A stretch of 64,000 nucleotides of DNA from the IMG/VR virus record IMGVR_UViG_3300046051_000044, positions 1,353 to 65,352 of that record, one strand, 5' to 3'. Below, in pieces: positions 10,199 to 14,511 of this stretch; within the stretch, counting starts at the first letter, position 1; each line of letters begins with the position of its first letter. The notes below the pieces were generated by a model that ran no database searches, was not told the DNA's origin, and was given only the letters and a program-made list of their open reading frames with translations. Both the position numbers and the translations under genes were made by a program. Source of the stretch: a virus.

Positions 10199-11398
10199 TC
10201 ACTCTGTAGTGGTCGCGATATTGATAGCGGCATTGACGTCGGCGTGGACTTCGTAGCCACAGCGCCGGCAGGCGAAGTCCCGGCCATCGCGGTACTCGCG
10301 GTCGGTCTGCCCGCATTTCCGGCAGGTGATGCTCGTGTATCGCGGGTCGACAAACCGAACCGGTATCCCTGCCTCGGTCGCTTTGTACGCAATCTTCTCT
10401 TGAATCTGCTCAAACGGCCAGTCGTGAATCGGGTCGTCGGCCGTCTCCCGGTAGTGGGTGAGGTCTTCGAGATGAATCACGCAGGGCCTGTGGTCGGCGG
10501 CGAGGTCGACGGACCGGCGACTTGCGACATTCGTGATATGGTCTGTATAGCGGTCATAGGTCAACCCGGTTTGTTTGATTGCCCGGAGGTCCCCCCGCTC
10601 CATCGCCTCTGTGCGTTTCTGCTTGATTCGTTCGCGGTGATGGCGGTACTCGCCACCGCTTTCCATCTCGACGGCTCGAATATCGGGCGACTCAGCATCC
10701 GGCTGGTTGACGACGGCAACCGCGACGAGCGGGTCATCGTTGAGGTCGACGCCGACGACCGTCGAGACGTCAGGCGCGTCGTACACGTCGACGTCCCACG
10801 ACACCGTGAGATGGCACGTCAGCCGGCCGTCGTCGGTGAGATGGAGCTCGGCGCTCCCGGCGCTGGCGTCGTCATCCTCGTCAGTGACCCGTTCGAGAAA
10901 CTCGCGCTGATAGTCACCTATCTGAAGGTGGAACCAGAGCGGGTTATAGGGAATAAAACTCGCCTTCAGCCCCCACCCCCGGTCGTTGCGTTCGATTGTG
11001 ACGTCCTGATGCGAGAGTCCCAGATACGACCCATCGCCGAACTGCGGCCGCTTTCCAGGCTTTCCATTCGACGCCCACGAGTTGAACGACGACGCGACTT
11101 TCTGCCCGGCGACCCGTGCAATCGTCGCTTTCACAGTCCGGTCTTCGTTGGGGAACGCCCGCGTAACCATCCGGTACATCGTCGGGTTTCGTTGCGTCCA
11201 CTCGTAGTCTGGGAATGACGGCAGCATGGCCGCCATATGCTCCGTCATGGCCTGATACTCCTCGATGCCCTCACGAACCAACTCGTTTTTCTGCTGACTC
11301 GTCTCCAGCTGGCAGACGATGGTCCGCGTAACAGATGTTGTCGTTATTTCTGGGGTGTATTCCGTGAGTGGCTGTTGGTCAGGGTCAGACTCTGTCAT
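10199..11398 (-). CDS. tnpB: TnpB-family (IS1341-type) / Cas12f-like RNA-guided RuvC nuclease, CRISPR-adjacent
   Basis: RuvC-I VVGVDLN, RuvC-II IHLEDL, Zn finger CRKC...CRRC, RuvC-III HADVNAAINIA; 399 aa; ends a few residues after RuvC-III; no tnpA nearby. Confidence 0.9.
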   Translation of the reverse strand: MTESDPDQQPLTEYTPEITTTSVTRTIVCQLETSQQKNELVREGIEEYQAMTEHMAAMLPSFPDYEWTQRNPTMYRMVTRAFPNEDRTVKATIARVAGQKVASSFNSWASNGKPGKRPQFGDGSYLGLSHQDVTIERNDRGWGLKASFIPYNPLWFHLQIGDYQREFLERVTDEDDDASAGSAELHLTDDGRLTCHLTVSWDVDVYDAPDVSTVVGVDLNDDPLVAVAVVNQPDAESPDIRAVEMESGGEYRHHRERIKQKRTEAMERGDLRAIKQTGLTYDRYTDHITNVASRRSVDLAADHRPCVIHLEDLTHYRETADDPIHDWPFEQIQEKIAYKATEAGIPVRFVDPRYTSITCRKCGQTDREYRDGRDFACRRCGYEVHADVNAAINIATTTE

Positions 11399-11440
11399 AG
11401 TGGGGCACCCGCGGCCGTTCGACGAGAGTGTAGACGAGTA

Positions 11441-11450
11441 GAATTAAAAG
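11441..11450. promoter_or_regulatory. AT-rich TATA-like box between tnpB and the putative ncRNA
   Basis: GAATTAAAAG (TTTTAA on the - strand), ~27 nt before the first hairpin on + and ~47 nt before the tnpB ATG on -. Confidence 0.5.
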
Positions 11451-11471
11451 GGTTGCTAACACATTCCACAA

Positions 11472-11830
11472 CAACCGGGTGAGGCTATAGGTCTCGCCCC
11501 GGGACGCGGTACCTTCACCGCGTGTGGCGGATTGATGCTATCCGTCACGGGTCCGCCCGCCGCAAAGCGTGGCTTGGACGTCCCTGGCTTGGATACATGG
11601 GGCTGGACATTCGCCCCACGGGACTCCGCCACGATAGGCGAGAAGCGTGACATAGACAGCCACCGCTGCCGGGCTAGTACTACACGAACAGAGGTTGACC
11701 CTCCCCTTCGCAGGGGAATCTGTGGTCGGAAATCACGAACCTCGTGGCCGCCGTCCGCGGACGGAAGGAACGCCTCAAATGCAAGAGTGGACACCCCGCC
11801 GTACACTGAGGGGCCTTCTCCAAGGCCCCG
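11472..11830 (+). ncRNA. Putative structured scaffold RNA (tracr/scout/omegaRNA-like)
   Basis: Dense stems seen by eye: 11477-85/11491-99; ACGCGGT 11504-10/ACCGCGT 11517-23 with loop ACCTTC; GTGGCGGA 11524-31/TCCGCCAC 11625-32; GTCCC/GGGAC; CCCCT/AGGGG; CCGTCC/GGACGG; terminal GGGGCCTT 11810-17/AAGGCCCC 11822-29. No convincing ORF. Confidence 0.6.
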
Positions 11831-11899
11831 TGAAAGCGGAAAAAGAAACATCATACTCATACCGTTCAACTCCGGGGGCTGGGGAAAATAATAACCCTC

Positions 11900-12024
11900 T
11901 CCTGCAAAGGAAGTTTCGGCGATTTTCCATCGACCCCCGGGGGGAACACCTCCTATTGCCGGTCGATGGTCCTGGCCGACGCTAATCCCATCTGTTAGGC
12001 CGCGAAATGGGCAAATTCGACATG
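11900..12024 (+). promoter_or_regulatory. CRISPR leader, haloarchaeal type I-B-like
   Basis: Inverted repeat CCATCGACC (11927-35)/GGTCGATGG (11961-69) around CCCCGGGGGG; ends ...GACATG directly before repeat 1, as recalled for Haloferax/Haloarcula leaders. Confidence 0.7.
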
Positions 12025-14511
12025 GTTTCAGACGAACCCTTGTGGGGTTGAAGGGACCTGAACGTGCCACTCGCCGTATCGTATCTCGATACCGTTTCAG
12101 ACGAACCCTTGTGGGGTTGAAGGGAGGCGTTCAAACGGGCCGAGCAGCAGGTCGGAGTGTTTCAGACGAACCCTTGTGGGGTTGAAGGGAGAAGTATTCC
12201 GGCGTCGAGTCGGGGAAGGACGGGTTTCAGACGAACCCTTGTGGGGTTGAAGGATCGCTGACGCCCCGGTAACGCTGCTCGCGGTCGCGTTTCAGACGAA
12301 CCCTTGTGGGGTTGAAGGGTTTTTCTGATGTTTCATGGCCGAAAAAGTGACCGTGTTTCAGACGAACCCTTGTGGGGTTGAAGGGGGGTCTTGGACAGGC
12401 GTACCCGTACGCGATCCTTAGTTTCAGACGAACCCTTGTGGGGTTGAAGGCCGCCATCGTTTGCCGTGAAAAACACCACCCGCTGGTTTCAGACGAACCC
12501 TTGTGGGGTTGAAGGATGGCCTCGACGGTCGGCTCGAACGCCTCCGCCATGGTTTCAGACGAACCCTTGTGGGGTTGAAGGTTTGTCGATGACCGTCACC
12601 GGGACGTGGTCGTGCAGGCGTTTCAGACGAACCCTTGTGGGGTTGAAGGCCGCTTCAGTTCCTGGGCAGCCTTCCGATTACTGATCGTTTCAGACGAACC
12701 CTTGTGGGGTTGAAGGGACCGTGACGAGATGGACGAGGTGGACGCTGACGAGGTTTCAGACGAACCCTTGTGGGGTTGAAGGGTCCACGGCAACACGGGC
12801 GTGGGCAAGACGCTCGCGTTTCAGACGAACCCTTGTGGGGTTGAAGGGGTAGGCACATCCCGCCGTAGGGCCACCCGCCTTTGAGCCCGTTTCAGACGAA
12901 CCCTTGTGGGGTTGAAGGGACACACTGGTTTCTGGAAGATCGAGAGACGGAGGGTTTCAGACGAACCCTTGTGGGGTTGAAGGCGCAACGCGGATTCGCG
13001 GGAGATACGCACCCACGGCGTTTCAGACGAACCCTTGTGGGGTTGAAGGTCGCGACAGGCGTTGACCAACCTGTCGACGAACATGGTTTCAGACGAACCC
13101 TTGTGGGGTTGAAGGTCGACGTCTGCCGTGACGCTCACGTTGCCGTTCGAGTTTCAGACGAACCCTTGTGGGGTTGAAGGGATGATATCGCCCTCAGTGA
13201 TCGGGCCGTCGATCGATGTTTCAGACGAACCCTTGTGGGGTTGAAGGTCGACCTCGACCATGGCGCTCTCGAACTCGCGGGCGGTTTCAGACGAACCCTT
13301 GTGGGGTTGAAGGCTCCTTGTCGAGGCGCTGGCCGTTCTCGCCGACGGGCTGGTTTCAGACGAACCCTTGTGGGGTTGAAGGGGTTCGAGCCGGGCGATG
13401 GTGACGTCGACGCTCACGAGCGTTTCAGACGAACCCTTGTGGGGTTGAAGGAGCTCGAAGGGGCCGGATCGAGAGGCGGGCGAGTGGCGTTTCAGACGAA
13501 CCCTTGTGGGATTGAAGGGAATGGGAATACCGTCCAGTCGACCATCGACGGGTCGTTTCAGACGAACCCTTGTGGGGTTGAAGGGACGGTGATCAGCCGG
13601 ATGGGTGGATTAGATCATCGTTTCAGACGAACCCTTGTGGGGTTGAAGGAGCCGAAGCCAGCGACACCACACGCCGGGAAGTGCTGGTTTCAGACGAACC
13701 CTTGTGGGGTTGAAGGAGAGGTGGCGCCGAATGATCGACGCCCCGTGGTGGTGGTTTCAGACGAACCCTTGTGGGGTTGAAGGCCACACTGCTCGTATCC
13801 AGTCCAGGATCCTCGGCCGGTTTCAGACGAACCCTTGTGTGGGGTTGAAGGCTTGAAGGCACTCAGGTCATCCAGTAGGCGCCCGATGTTTCAGACGAAC
13901 CCTTGTGGGGTTGAAGGGCCTCGCCCTGCGTGATCGGCCGGACGCGGACGTAGTTTCAGACGAACCCTTGTGGGGTTGAAGGCCCTTGAGCGTAATGACG
14001 TCCTCTCGAATGAACGGAGTTTCAGACGAACCCTTGTGGGGTTGAAGGGCCGTGTCCGTTGTTATTGTCGCGTCAATATCGCCCGCGTTTCAGACGAACC
14101 CTTGTGGGGTTGAAGGGATGCGTGATCCCGGCGTCGGCTATGACCCCGACTAGTTTCAGACGAACCCTTGTGGGGTTGAAGGGAAGAAAACCCCGTAGGT
14201 GGCTTCACCGATGATGAAGTTTCAGACGAACCCTTGTGGGGTTGAAGGCGCGACAACGACACGGAGTGCATCGCAATCGAGGTAGTTTCAGACGAACCCT
14301 TGTGGGGTTGAAGGCGCGCGTACATCCCTGTCGACGGCCACCGCGATGAGAGTTTCAGACGAACCCTTGTGGGGTTGAAGGGAGTTTGGGCTGGGATCGG
14401 CGGTCGAGTTCCGCGCGTTTCAGACGAACCCTTGTGGGGTTGAAGGGGGTAGCGGTCGAGATACCGCCGGGCGATTGTGAGGTTTCAGACGAACCCTTGT
14501 GGGGTTGAAGG
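12025..14511 (+). CRISPR. CRISPR array, 38 repeats / 37 spacers (35-41 nt), repeat GTTTCAGACGAACCCTTGTGGGGTTGAAGG
   Basis: Counted by hand; all 38 copies end in GAAGG. Repeat 23 has GGGATTG; repeat 28 has a TG insertion. Differs from the canonical haloarchaeal I-B repeat only at position 30 (C to G). Confidence 0.98.

What the first reader, a model, noticed from the sequence alone, without database searches (positions are those of the whole stretch)
10199..14511. Candidate TnpB-derived (Cas12f/V-U-like) CRISPR system using a haloarchaeal type I-B-type array
Seen: an intact 399-aa RuvC D-E-D + Zn-finger nuclease gene with no tnpA and no obvious IS ends. Divergent from it lie a ~360-nt structured RNA, a I-B-like leader and 37 spacers. 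No other cas gene is in the window except a solo Cas4-like gene ~3 kb away. Established: type V effectors arose repeatedly from TnpB next to CRISPR arrays, and Cas6 processing of I-B repeats leaves an 8-nt 5' handle before the spacer, the same repeat-then-guide order type V guides use. Inference: the nuclease may load crRNA (handle GUUGAAGG) plus a separate scaffold RNA, borrowing host Cas1/2/4 (and possibly Cas6). The 5' TTC PAM would suit both I-B adaptation and a TnpB-style 5' TAM. I cannot confirm that this is undescribed.
Basis: partly seen in the sequence, partly recalled or inferred. Interest (0 to 1): 0.97.

Follow-up and report, generated by a model that had tools for sequence, protein, structure and literature searches.

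The report
Cas12f-like nuclease borrowing type-I arrays
A small TnpB/Cas12f-like nuclease gene, a ~380-nt structured RNA and a type-I-style CRISPR array form one conserved cassette in salt-loving archaea and their viruses. Two short stretches of the RNA co-vary with the end of the CRISPR repeat, so the nuclease most likely reads this array: a type V-like system built on a captured type I array.

Summary
The window holds an intact 399-aa RuvC/Zn-finger nuclease (10199-11398, -), a ~380-nt structured RNA on the opposite strand (about 11470-11849, +), a canonical haloarchaeal leader (11923-12024) and 38 repeats/37 spacers (12025-14511).

This is not a chance IS insertion. I fetched 41 related loci (TnpB 39-71% identical; chromosomes, a plasmid, metagenomes, four IMG/VR virus contigs). 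In 40 the same RNA lies beside the nuclease gene. In 26 of the 28 loci with enough flanking DNA, an array starts 97-208 nt past the RNA's 3' end. The repeats are of I-B type (30 nt) or a 37-nt type.

The nuclease is single-copy per genome and far from ordinary TnpB paralogues. Its predicted fold is closest to AsCas12f. Two unpaired RNA segments are complementary to repeat positions -6..-1 and -13..-7, and they change in step with the repeat. This resembles the pseudoknot/anti-repeat of TnpB and Cas12 guide RNAs.

Nine of 14 carrier genomes show no Cas1 or Cas6, and no Cas3 over the family cut-off.

Guide use, RNA ends and TAM are inferred, not shown. The TTC PAM is not supported. Most likely this is a new variant of type V/TranC-like systems. 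I could not check whether it sits among the catalogued V-U6-45 or TranC clades.

The parts
10199..11398 (-). TnpB/Cas12f-like RNA-guided nuclease, 399 aa (P0001), with RuvC D218-E311-D387 and a CxxC...CxxC zinc finger
   Evidence: AF2 model pLDDT 89.7; best PDB fold match AsCas12f (E 1e-22, TMq 0.72-0.75). One orthologue per genome.
11442..11449 (.). AT-rich TATA-like box between the nuclease gene and the RNA. It is a possible promoter for the RNA, and perhaps for both directions (inferred).
   Evidence: Read from the sequence. An AT-rich box sits about 25-30 nt before the conserved RNA start in relatives, including loci where the RNA follows the gene. No transcript ends were mapped.
11470..11849 (+). 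Structured scaffold RNA (~380 nt), tracrRNA/omegaRNA-like, pointing towards the array
   Evidence: Covariation and strand asymmetry. An nhmmer profile finds it in 41 loci, in 40 of them beside the nuclease gene. No Rfam family matches. The ends are taken from where conservation stops, not from RNA data.
11505..11522 (+). Hairpin 1: stems 11505-11509 and 11518-11522, loop 11510-11517. Loop bases CCUUCA (11512-11517) are complementary to the last 6 nt of the repeat (UGAAGG).
   Evidence: 26 of 28 loci form at least 5 of 6 pairs. Among 16 distinct loop/repeat combinations, 83 of 96 positions pair, against 74.9 +/- 1.8 when shuffled (1 of 50000 shuffles reaches this).
11793..11799 (+). Second anti-repeat segment ACCCCGC. 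It is unpaired in the consensus fold and complementary to repeat positions -13..-7 (GUGGGGU).
   Evidence: Among 15 distinct combinations, 87 of 105 positions pair, against 80.6 +/- 1.9 when shuffled (20 of 20000). The C/U/A at its second base follows G/A/U at repeat position -8.
11838..11849 (+). Conserved 3' tail GGAAAAAGAAAC of the scaffold RNA. It resembles a repeat end and does not co-vary with the loop.
11923..12024 (+). Canonical haloarchaeal CRISPR leader (TCGACC...GGTCGA motif, ...CATG before the first repeat)
   Evidence: It aligns with the leaders of both cas-adjacent arrays of Har. marismortui pNG400, which have no scaffold RNA.
12025..14511 (+). CRISPR array: 38 repeats of 30 nt (I-B type, ending GUUGAAGG) and 37 spacers of 35-41 nt

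Best explanation
Window 10199-14511 is a self-contained type V-like CRISPR cassette. It consists of a TnpB-sized, Cas12f-like RuvC nuclease, a ~380-nt scaffold RNA with its own promoter, and a CRISPR array of type I origin with a canonical type I leader.

Proposed mechanism (inferred). The array is transcribed. The 3' end of each repeat, just before each spacer, pairs with two unpaired segments of the scaffold RNA. The hairpin-1 loop pairs with repeat positions -6..-1. This rebuilds in trans the pseudoknot that TnpB and Cas12 proteins recognise next to the guide. The junction segment ACCCCGC pairs with positions -13..-7. The nuclease loaded with scaffold plus crRNA then cuts DNA matching the spacer next to a still unknown 5' TAM/PAM.

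New spacers are probably written by a type I (I-B or 37-nt-repeat type) adaptation module acting in trans on the canonical leader whenever one is in the cell. On a virus or provirus such a cassette would serve against competing mobile elements.

Shown here: the anatomy, conservation of the cassette, RNA structure and strand, co-variation of RNA with repeat, the fold, single-copy status, and frequent absence of cas genes. Inferred: RNA ends, crRNA loading, cleavage, TAM, and the spacer source.
For: (1) Synteny. 41 loci carry the RNA and 40 have the nuclease gene beside it. Of the 28 loci with enough DNA, 26 have an array starting 97-208 nt after the RNA's 3' end. Many metagenome contigs break about 650 nt upstream of the gene, where the array starts.
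(2) RNA>leader>array is kept while the gene's orientation changed at least 3 times. In L043, L063, L064, L067, L070 and L071 the RNA lies downstream on the same strand, the omegaRNA/tracrRNA position.
(3) The repeat type differs (30-nt I-B type, 37-nt type) and the RNA follows it. Loop/repeat states are CUUCA/UGAAG, CUUCG/CGAAG, CUCCA/UGGAG, UUCCA/UGGAA, GUUUCA/UGAAAC and CUUUCG/CGAAAG. At position -2 there are 4-5 independent contrasts, all concordant and none discordant. The second segment also follows the repeat.
(4) In ISDra2 omegaRNA, nt -6..-2 before the guide pair with a 5'-proximal segment. This forms the pseudoknot conserved in all Cas12 guide RNAs (PMC10097598).
(5) There is one orthologue per genome (385-550 bits), while all other TnpB paralogues score at most 89 bits. 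No TnpA is present and nothing is conserved beyond the stop codon.
(6) The catalytic and zinc residues are conserved. The fold is closest to AsCas12f.
(7) 9 of 14 carrier genomes have no Cas1 or Cas6 hit, and no Cas3 hit over the cut-off. In three of them every copy of the repeat lies in the nuclease-linked array.
(8) Arrays share no spacers, even between loci whose nucleases are nearly identical.
(9) Similarity between loci stops at window 10187 and 14511, so the cassette moves as a unit.
Against: There is no experimental evidence for crRNA loading or cleavage. The anti-repeat is short (6 + 5-7 nt). L007/L058 have one C-A mismatch, and independent evolutionary contrasts are few (4-5 at the best position; no single position reaches significance in a sign test). 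L041 keeps an intact nuclease gene and RNA without an array. The arrays are ordinary type I arrays with ordinary leaders, and in Har. marismortui a complete I-B system on another replicon uses the same repeat. The array could therefore serve type I alone there. How pre-crRNA would be cut in Cas6-less hosts is unknown. Only one protospacer was found (35/38 match, GGG flank), so no TAM is known. Draft genomes and MAGs can miss cas genes. The RNA's own repeat-like tail could carry a fixed guide, as in a transposon.
Confidence: 0.75

Rival explanations
1. Leader-homing selfish element. The nuclease and RNA form a TnpB/omegaRNA pair whose fixed guide is the DNA just after the GAAAC tail. The element merely lives in CRISPR leaders as a safe harbour and never uses crRNAs.
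For: The RNA ends in a repeat-like tail followed by a semi-conserved stretch. The element always abuts the same point of a canonical leader. L041 keeps gene and RNA without an array. TnpB biology is homing (PMC10097598; PMC13565253).
Against: It does not explain why two unpaired RNA segments track the repeat sequence across six repeat-end states. The clade is single-copy, has no TnpA and has no conserved second end. The tail does not co-vary with the loop. The whole cassette including the array moves together.
Confidence: 0.1
2. Accessory to type I immunity. The RNA-nuclease complex binds repeat ends to process pre-crRNA, to regulate array transcription or to promote array recombination, and Cascade/Cas3 remains the effector.
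For: The array and leader are canonical type I. Some carriers have full I-B systems with the same repeat. RNA:repeat pairing would equally fit a processing role.
Against: Most carriers lack Cas1 and Cas6 hits, and lack Cas3 hits over the cut-off. The RuvC DNA-cleaving triad is conserved and the fold is that of a DNA-targeting Cas12f. The pairing sits exactly where TnpB/Cas12 place the guide-proximal pseudoknot.
Confidence: 0.08
3. Ordinary IS1341-type TnpB that landed next to an array by chance, or a decaying relic without function.
For: The protein passes the TnpB family model and is annotated as IS605 OrfB in public records. TnpB genes are very abundant in haloarchaea (PMC3119063).
Against: The same architecture occurs in about 40 loci at 39-71% protein identity, with intact reading frames and conserved catalytic residues. 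Only pNG300 among plasmid-borne arrays has the RNA, so the RNA is not a general leader feature.
Confidence: 0.02

Closest known systems
Type V-F CRISPR-Cas (miniature Cas12f, e.g. AsCas12f, PDB 8J12/8DZJ)
   Same: It is a 400-aa-class RuvC + zinc-finger effector and gives the best fold match (TMq 0.72-0.75) and the best PDB sequence match. A separate scaffold RNA is encoded between gene and array. The cassette has no adaptation genes.
   Different: Sequence identity is only about 19%, and the NCBIfam Cas12f2 score is 102 against a cut-off of 450. The scaffold RNA is about 380 nt. The anti-repeat is bipartite and only 11-13 nt long. The array and leader are of type I origin. In the window the gene is divergent from the array. 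The hosts are haloarchaea and their viruses.
TranC (transposon-CRISPR intermediates; Jin et al., Cell 2025, as summarised in PMC13565253 and bioRxiv 10.64898/2026.03.27.714800)
   Same: A TnpB-sized nuclease is linked to an array, and the omegaRNA/reRNA is functionally split into a scaffold and a crRNA. One TranC was also found in a tailed-virus genome.
   Different: Membership in a named TranC clade could not be checked because the paper is not in the library. LaTranC is a weaker fold match (TMq 0.54). Here the array is a captured type I array with a canonical leader, not a short array of unknown subtype.
TnpB/omegaRNA of IS200/IS605 (ISDra2, PDB 8H1J)
   Same: It passes the family HMM and has the same domain set. 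A pseudoknot-like pairing sits next to the guide position. In some relatives the RNA lies just downstream on the same strand.
   Different: It has no TnpA and no conserved ends, and it is single-copy. In the window the RNA does not overlap the gene's 3' end and is on the other strand. A multi-spacer array stands in place of one fixed guide.
Predicted subtypes V-U6 to V-U45 (Altae-Tran et al., PNAS 2023, PMC10691335)
   Same: These are clades of TnpB-like proteins with an evolutionarily conserved link to arrays, mostly without cas1/2/4, and some are archaeal. The paper explicitly allows an origin by insertion next to a pre-existing array.
   Different: That paper reports arrays almost always downstream of the gene, and it set aside loci whose arrays belong to non-type-V systems. 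Its supplementary lists were not readable, so overlap with this clade is unknown.
Type V-K (Cas12k) and other systems that rely on arrays or adaptation supplied by another CRISPR type
   Same: It is an effector without its own adaptation genes. From my own knowledge, its repeats resemble those of a co-resident type I/III system and end in ...UUGAAAG/C next to the spacer.
   Different: Cas12k is nuclease-dead and guides Tn7-like transposition. Here the RuvC triad is intact and no transposition genes are linked.

Membership tests
TnpB (IS200/IS605 accessory RNA-guided nuclease) | RuvC D-E-D triad, zinc-finger/TNB domain, family HMM over cut-off | tested here: met
   NF040570 scores 114.7 bits (cut-off 100) and PF07282 scores 83.6 bits. 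Catalytic and zinc residues are conserved.
TnpB (IS200/IS605 accessory RNA-guided nuclease) | omegaRNA overlapping or following the 3' end of the gene on the same strand, ending at the transposon right end | tested here: not met
   In the window nothing is conserved beyond the stop codon, and the conserved RNA is upstream on the other strand. In six relatives the RNA does lie downstream on the same strand, but it is followed by a leader and array.
TnpB (IS200/IS605 accessory RNA-guided nuclease) | Part of a mobile IS: TnpA nearby or in the genome context, defined ends, several copies | tested here: not met
   The record has no PF01797 hit. There is one orthologue per genome in 5 genomes. Similarity between loci ends at the gene's stop codon and at the array end.
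Type V CRISPR-Cas effector (Cas12) | Single RuvC effector with an evolutionarily conserved link to a CRISPR array | tested here: met
   26 of 28 informative loci have the array at a fixed distance from the RNA. This holds across 39-71% protein identity.
Type V CRISPR-Cas effector (Cas12) | tracrRNA or scaffold with an anti-repeat matching the repeat, including the guide-proximal pseudoknot | tested here: met
   Two segments are complementary to repeat positions -6..-1 and -13..-7 and show compensatory changes. The architecture was compared with PMC10097598. Pairing is inferred from sequence only.
Type V CRISPR-Cas effector (Cas12) | crRNA-guided cleavage of PAM-flanked DNA | not testable with these tools
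   This needs RIP-seq and interference or cleavage assays. Only one imperfect protospacer was found.
Cas12f (type V-F) | Cas12f fold and family model | tested here: inconclusive
   The fold is closest to AsCas12f (E 1e-22, TMq up to 0.75). NF049972 Cas12f2 scores 102 bits against a cut-off of 450. Dimerisation was not tested.
TranC | TnpB-sized nuclease with a CRISPR array and a split guide RNA; placement in a published TranC clade | tested here: inconclusive
   The descriptive features are met. Clade membership cannot be checked because the Cell 2025 paper and its lists are not held.
Type I-B CRISPR array (haloarchaeal) | 30-nt repeat of the I-B family and a leader like those of cas-adjacent arrays | tested here: met
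   Rfam CRISPR-DR24 hits 38 times. The leader aligns with both pNG400 leaders.
Type I-B CRISPR-Cas locus | cas6/cas8b/cas7/cas5/cas3 and cas1/2/4 next to the array or in the genome | tested here: not met
   The virus record has no Cas6 or Cas1. 9 of 14 carrier genomes have no Cas1 or Cas6 hit, and no Cas3 hit over the cut-off. Drafts and MAGs may be incomplete.

The most novel reading that the evidence does not exclude
A class 2 effector lives on class 1 memory. A TnpB/Cas12f-like nuclease lost its transposon and keeps only a scaffold RNA. The guide-proximal pseudoknot and a short anti-repeat of that RNA are completed in trans by the 3' end of type I (I-B or 37-nt type) repeats. It can therefore read arrays written by type I adaptation machinery, and it retunes a handful of RNA bases whenever it captures an array with another repeat. 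The cassette travels between chromosomes, plasmids and tailed viruses of haloarchaea. It gives cas-less hosts and viruses a portable one-protein immune or interference system. This would be a living example of type V origin by capture of a pre-existing array rather than by duplication of omegaRNA segments.
Probability: 0.55. Interest if true: 0.9.

Novelty: new variant of a known kind. Interest (0 to 1): 0.85.

Why it matters
How TnpB became Cas12 is an open question. The leading model derives arrays from duplicated omegaRNA segments, and capture of a pre-existing array was only mentioned as a possibility (PMC10691335). This clade shows capture directly: canonical type I leaders and repeats, at least two repeat families, and an RNA that was retuned base by base to each.

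It also suggests that 'orphan' arrays in cas-less haloarchaea are not necessarily dead. It suggests too that tailed archaeal viruses can carry a 37-spacer, one-protein interference module. The system is directly testable in genetically tractable haloarchaea. It offers a compact nuclease whose crRNA needs only 11-13 repeat-derived bases.

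Tried and rejected
- RNAduplex of whole repeats against the whole upstream region gave no signal above shuffled repeats (z -1.9 to +0.8). The anti-repeats only appeared when aligned positions were compared.
- Rfam has no family for the RNA.
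- The TAM/PAM could not be derived. The window array and the L005 array gave no protospacer in 'phages'. The window region gave a single 35/38 match in 'plasmids'; the L005 array gave none there. Four leader-proximal spacers had no exact match in IMG/VR.
- PF01905 (Cas7/DevR) does not ring in the Haloferax control, so that search says nothing.
- TIGR01587 mostly hits generic helicases below the cut-off.
- RNA evidence is only a weak hint. One metatranscriptome contig (198 nt) and one contig of a doubtful 'RNA' run (237 nt) lie wholly inside the scaffold RNA of pNG300 and none lies on the gene. Contigs cannot show transcription, strand or ends.
- A wide BLAST census scored only 2 candidates per genome. 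It found convincing RNA matches in 7 of 401 haloarchaeal species genomes, which is a lower bound.
- The first viral scan with the single protein found nothing useful.
- I did not use complex prediction, because it offers no RNA chains.
- I considered that the intergenic region might code for a protein (ORFs at 11456-12070 and 11532-11891). I rejected this because of the indels that break any frame, the helix covariation and the G-U/A-C strand asymmetry.

Full report
**What is in the window.** The window lies in an 80.9-kb IMG/VR virus record (linear; CheckV completeness 77%). It carries a tailed-virus module: tape measure 25925-29653, portal 37846-39732 and large terminase 39760-41487.

At 10199-11398 on the minus strand is an intact 399-aa ORF. 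It passes the NCBIfam guided_TnpB model (114.7 bits, cut-off 100) and Pfam PF07282. RuvC D218 and D387 and the four zinc-finger cysteines are invariant in 33 homologues. E311 is conserved in at least 90% of them.

Rfam finds 38 copies of the I-B-type repeat CRISPR-DR24 on the plus strand at 12025-14511, giving 37 spacers. The record has no TnpA, Cas1 or Cas6. The 'Cas4-like' gene at 17660-18358 is a PD-(D/E)XK nuclease that scores far below the Cas4 cut-off.

**The same cassette recurs.** A search with the intergenic DNA hit Haloarcula marismortui plasmid pNG300. There a TnpB gene, about 590 nt of alignable non-coding DNA (74% identity over its whole length) and an array of 48 repeats stand in the same order.

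Scans of species genomes, IMG/VR and metagenomes with a profile of close homologues gave 10 + 3 + 32 loci. A search of 401 haloarchaeal genomes with the RNA added five more. An nhmmer profile of the RNA finds it in 41 loci, and 40 have the nuclease gene beside it. Of the 28 loci with the RNA's 3' end plus at least 330 nt beyond it, 26 have an array starting 97-208 nt further on.

The exceptions are L041 (gene and RNA, no array) and L039 (an RNA fragment alone). Many metagenome contigs end about 650 nt upstream of the gene, which is where an array would break the assembly. Among plasmid-borne haloarchaeal arrays only pNG300 has the RNA. The RNA is therefore not a general leader feature.

**The RNA.** RNAalifold on ten loci predicts 69 pairs on the window's plus strand, 44 of them with compensatory changes. 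The energy is -78.2 kcal/mol against -5.9 +/- 3.0 for column-shuffled alignments. There are 76 G-U against 6 A-C cells. The minus strand gives 36 G-U against 31 A-C.

The RNA is therefore encoded on the strand that points to the array, at about 11470-11849. It ends in a conserved GGAAAAAGAAAC. An AT-rich box lies 25-30 nt before its start. No Rfam family matches it. Its ends are inferred from conservation only.

**Gene order.** In L043, L063, L064, L067, L070 and L071 the RNA lies just downstream of the nuclease gene on the same strand. That is the classical omegaRNA/tracrRNA position, and leader and array follow wherever the contig continues. In L052 the RNA-leader-array unit is inverted downstream of the gene.

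On a tree of 36 nucleases the gene's orientation relative to the unit changes at least three times. RNA>leader>array never changes. I do not claim which order is ancestral.

**The RNA matches the repeat.** A crude duplex search with whole repeats found nothing above chance. Aligned positions tell another story.

The loop of the first hairpin (window 11510-11517) ends in six bases complementary to the last six bases of the repeat, and it changes with them:
- CUUCA with UGAAG. The base before it is C where the repeat ends in G (window, L045) and G where it ends in C (pNG300, L004, L005).
- CUUCG with CGAAG or CGGAG.
- CUCCA with UGGAG.
- UUCCA with UGGAA.
- GUUUCA with UGAAAC in all loci with 37-nt repeats, and UUUCA in L052, whose 30-nt repeat also ends in UGAAAC.
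- CUUUCG with CGAAAG.

26 of 28 loci form at least 5 of 6 pairs. Among 16 distinct combinations, 83 of 96 positions pair, against 74.9 +/- 1.8 after shuffling repeats among loci (1 of 50000 shuffles reaches this). At position -2 there are 4-5 phylogenetically independent contrasts, all concordant. At positions -4 and -6 none is discordant.

A second segment, ACCCCGC at 11793-11799, is unpaired in the consensus fold. It is complementary to repeat positions -13..-7 and co-varies at position -8: C, U or A opposite G, A or U. Here 87 of 105 positions pair against 80.6 +/- 1.9 after shuffling (20 of 20000). The RNA's own tail does not co-vary. L007/L058 carry one C-A mismatch.

The contrasts are few, and this is comparative evidence, not proof of pairing.

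**Why this pairing is meaningful.** In the ISDra2 TnpB structure, nucleotides -6..-2 before the guide pair with a segment near the 5' end of the scaffold. [quoted passage not shown] The loop:repeat pairing found here has the same length and the same place relative to the guide. The difference is that its 3' strand would be supplied by the crRNA.

A Cas6-cut crRNA with an 8-nt handle would keep 8 of the 13 paired bases. A longer 5' repeat tag would keep all of them.

**The protein is not an ordinary IS copy.** Each of five genomes has exactly one orthologue (385-550 bits). All their other TnpB paralogues score 89 bits or less. Nothing beyond the stop codon is conserved between loci. Similarity between loci and the virus record is confined to window 10187-14511. 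The cassette, array included, is thus the unit that moves.

An AlphaFold model (pLDDT 89.7) is closest to AsCas12f (E 1e-22, TMq 0.72-0.75). It is closer to AsCas12f than to ISDra2 TnpB (0.56) or LaTranC (0.54). The sequence search of PDB agrees. The Cas12f2 family model is far below its cut-off.

**Relation to type I systems.** The last ~100 nt before the first repeat align with the leaders of both arrays that flank the I-B cas operon on Har. marismortui pNG400. Those arrays use the same repeat and have no scaffold RNA. The nuclease and RNA thus abut a canonical type I leader.

Of 14 genomes carrying the nuclease-RNA cassette, Cas1 was found in four (one of them only as a C-terminal fragment), Cas6 in five, and Cas3 over the cut-off in two. 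Nine have no Cas1 or Cas6, and no Cas3 over the cut-off. In three of those nine, every copy of the repeat lies in the nuclease-linked array. Draft assemblies and MAGs may miss genes.

Arrays share no spacers, even between pNG300 and Har. amylolytica, whose nucleases are nearly identical. Arrays therefore turn over or are exchanged.

**What is not supported.** The proposed TTC PAM has no basis. The only protospacer found (spacer 12582-12619, 35/38 match, Natrinema thermotolerans plasmid) has GGG on its 5' side. Further searches found no protospacers.

Expression is hinted at only by two short contigs that lie wholly within the RNA of pNG300.

Whether the cassette is truly inside the viral genome is uncertain. 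The tail module starts 4 kb to the right. The genes to the left have no family. The record also carries TrwB/TraG-like ATPases.

**Comparison with the literature.** TnpB-sized, array-linked nucleases with a split guide RNA are known as TranC (Cell 2025, summarised in PMC13565253 and bioRxiv 10.64898/2026.03.27.714800). Forty predicted V-U subtypes were catalogued in 2023 (PMC10691335). That study found arrays almost always downstream of the gene, set aside loci whose arrays belong to other CRISPR types, and mentions Halobacteria only for an unrelated 220-aa clade. Its supplements and the TranC paper are not held.

Full-text searches found no paper linking TnpB or Cas12f with haloarchaeal arrays. 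The exception is a passing note on the Halegenticoccus locus (PMC12596717).

**Verdict.** I file this as a new variant of a known kind (type V / TranC-like). Its distinguishing features are the captured type I arrays and leaders, the minimal bipartite anti-repeat, the long scaffold RNA and its carriage by haloarchaeal viruses. Confidence that it works as a crRNA-guided nuclease is 0.75.

Noticed in passing
window 18559-45164, 61168-63900; L078 2513-6070: The record mixes a tailed-virus structural module (tape measure, portal, terminase) with two TrwB/TraG-like P-loop ATPases typical of conjugative plasmids. It may be a provirus in a plasmid or a virus-plasmid hybrid. GC falls to 58-60% over 10-17 kb, against 64-70% elsewhere.
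   Followed up: partly
window 6047-7897 and 7881-9731: Two adjacent 616-aa ORFs of equal length, and a 753-aa ORF at 2631-4892, match no Pfam or PHROG family.
   Followed up: partly
window 12582-12619; L077 1503-1537: Spacer 9 matches (35/38) a hypothetical gene on Natrinema thermotolerans plasmid CP031299.1. The 5' flank is GGG, not one of the known haloarchaeal I-B PAMs. The mismatches lie at the spacer's 3' end.
   Followed up: partly
window 11850-11860 and equivalents in relatives: A semi-conserved motif (ATCATACTCAT / CCATTCATC / CTATTCATCGG) directly follows the RNA's GAAAC tail. It could be a terminator, a processing site or a vestigial fixed guide.
   Followed up: no
L013 (Halegenticoccus tardaugens) 3729-6960: A nuclease gene truncated to residues 68-395 abuts the end of a 35-repeat array with no scaffold RNA, next to a complete I-B system. 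This is a degraded copy of the cassette.
   Followed up: partly
L011 and L012 (Halonotius pteroides, one contig): Two copies of the cassette with identical nuclease and RNA lie about 7.5 kb apart on one 15-kb contig.
   Followed up: no
L041 (G017) 9870-11574; L039 (G371) 9714-9947: L041 keeps an intact nuclease gene and RNA (loop ACUCCA) and a leader-like stretch but has no repeats. L039 is a lone 3' fragment of the RNA in a genome that has Cas1.
   Followed up: partly
window 15277-16134: This ORF matches only the N-terminal third of a C-5 cytosine DNA methyltransferase (Pfam 38.6 bits; NCBIfam dcm below the cut-off). It is possibly truncated or divergent.
   Followed up: no
window 12025-14511: 19 of the 35 spacers I extracted begin with G, directly after a repeat that already ends in GG. 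The repeat/spacer boundary or the integration site may be offset by one base in part of the array.
   Followed up: no
L043, L060, L063, L067, L071 (34-40% GC): A sub-clade of the cassette sits on AT-rich contigs, unlike typical haloarchaea. It may belong to low-GC halophiles such as Haloquadratum or nanohaloarchaea, or to their viruses. In these loci the RNA follows the gene on the same strand.
   Followed up: no
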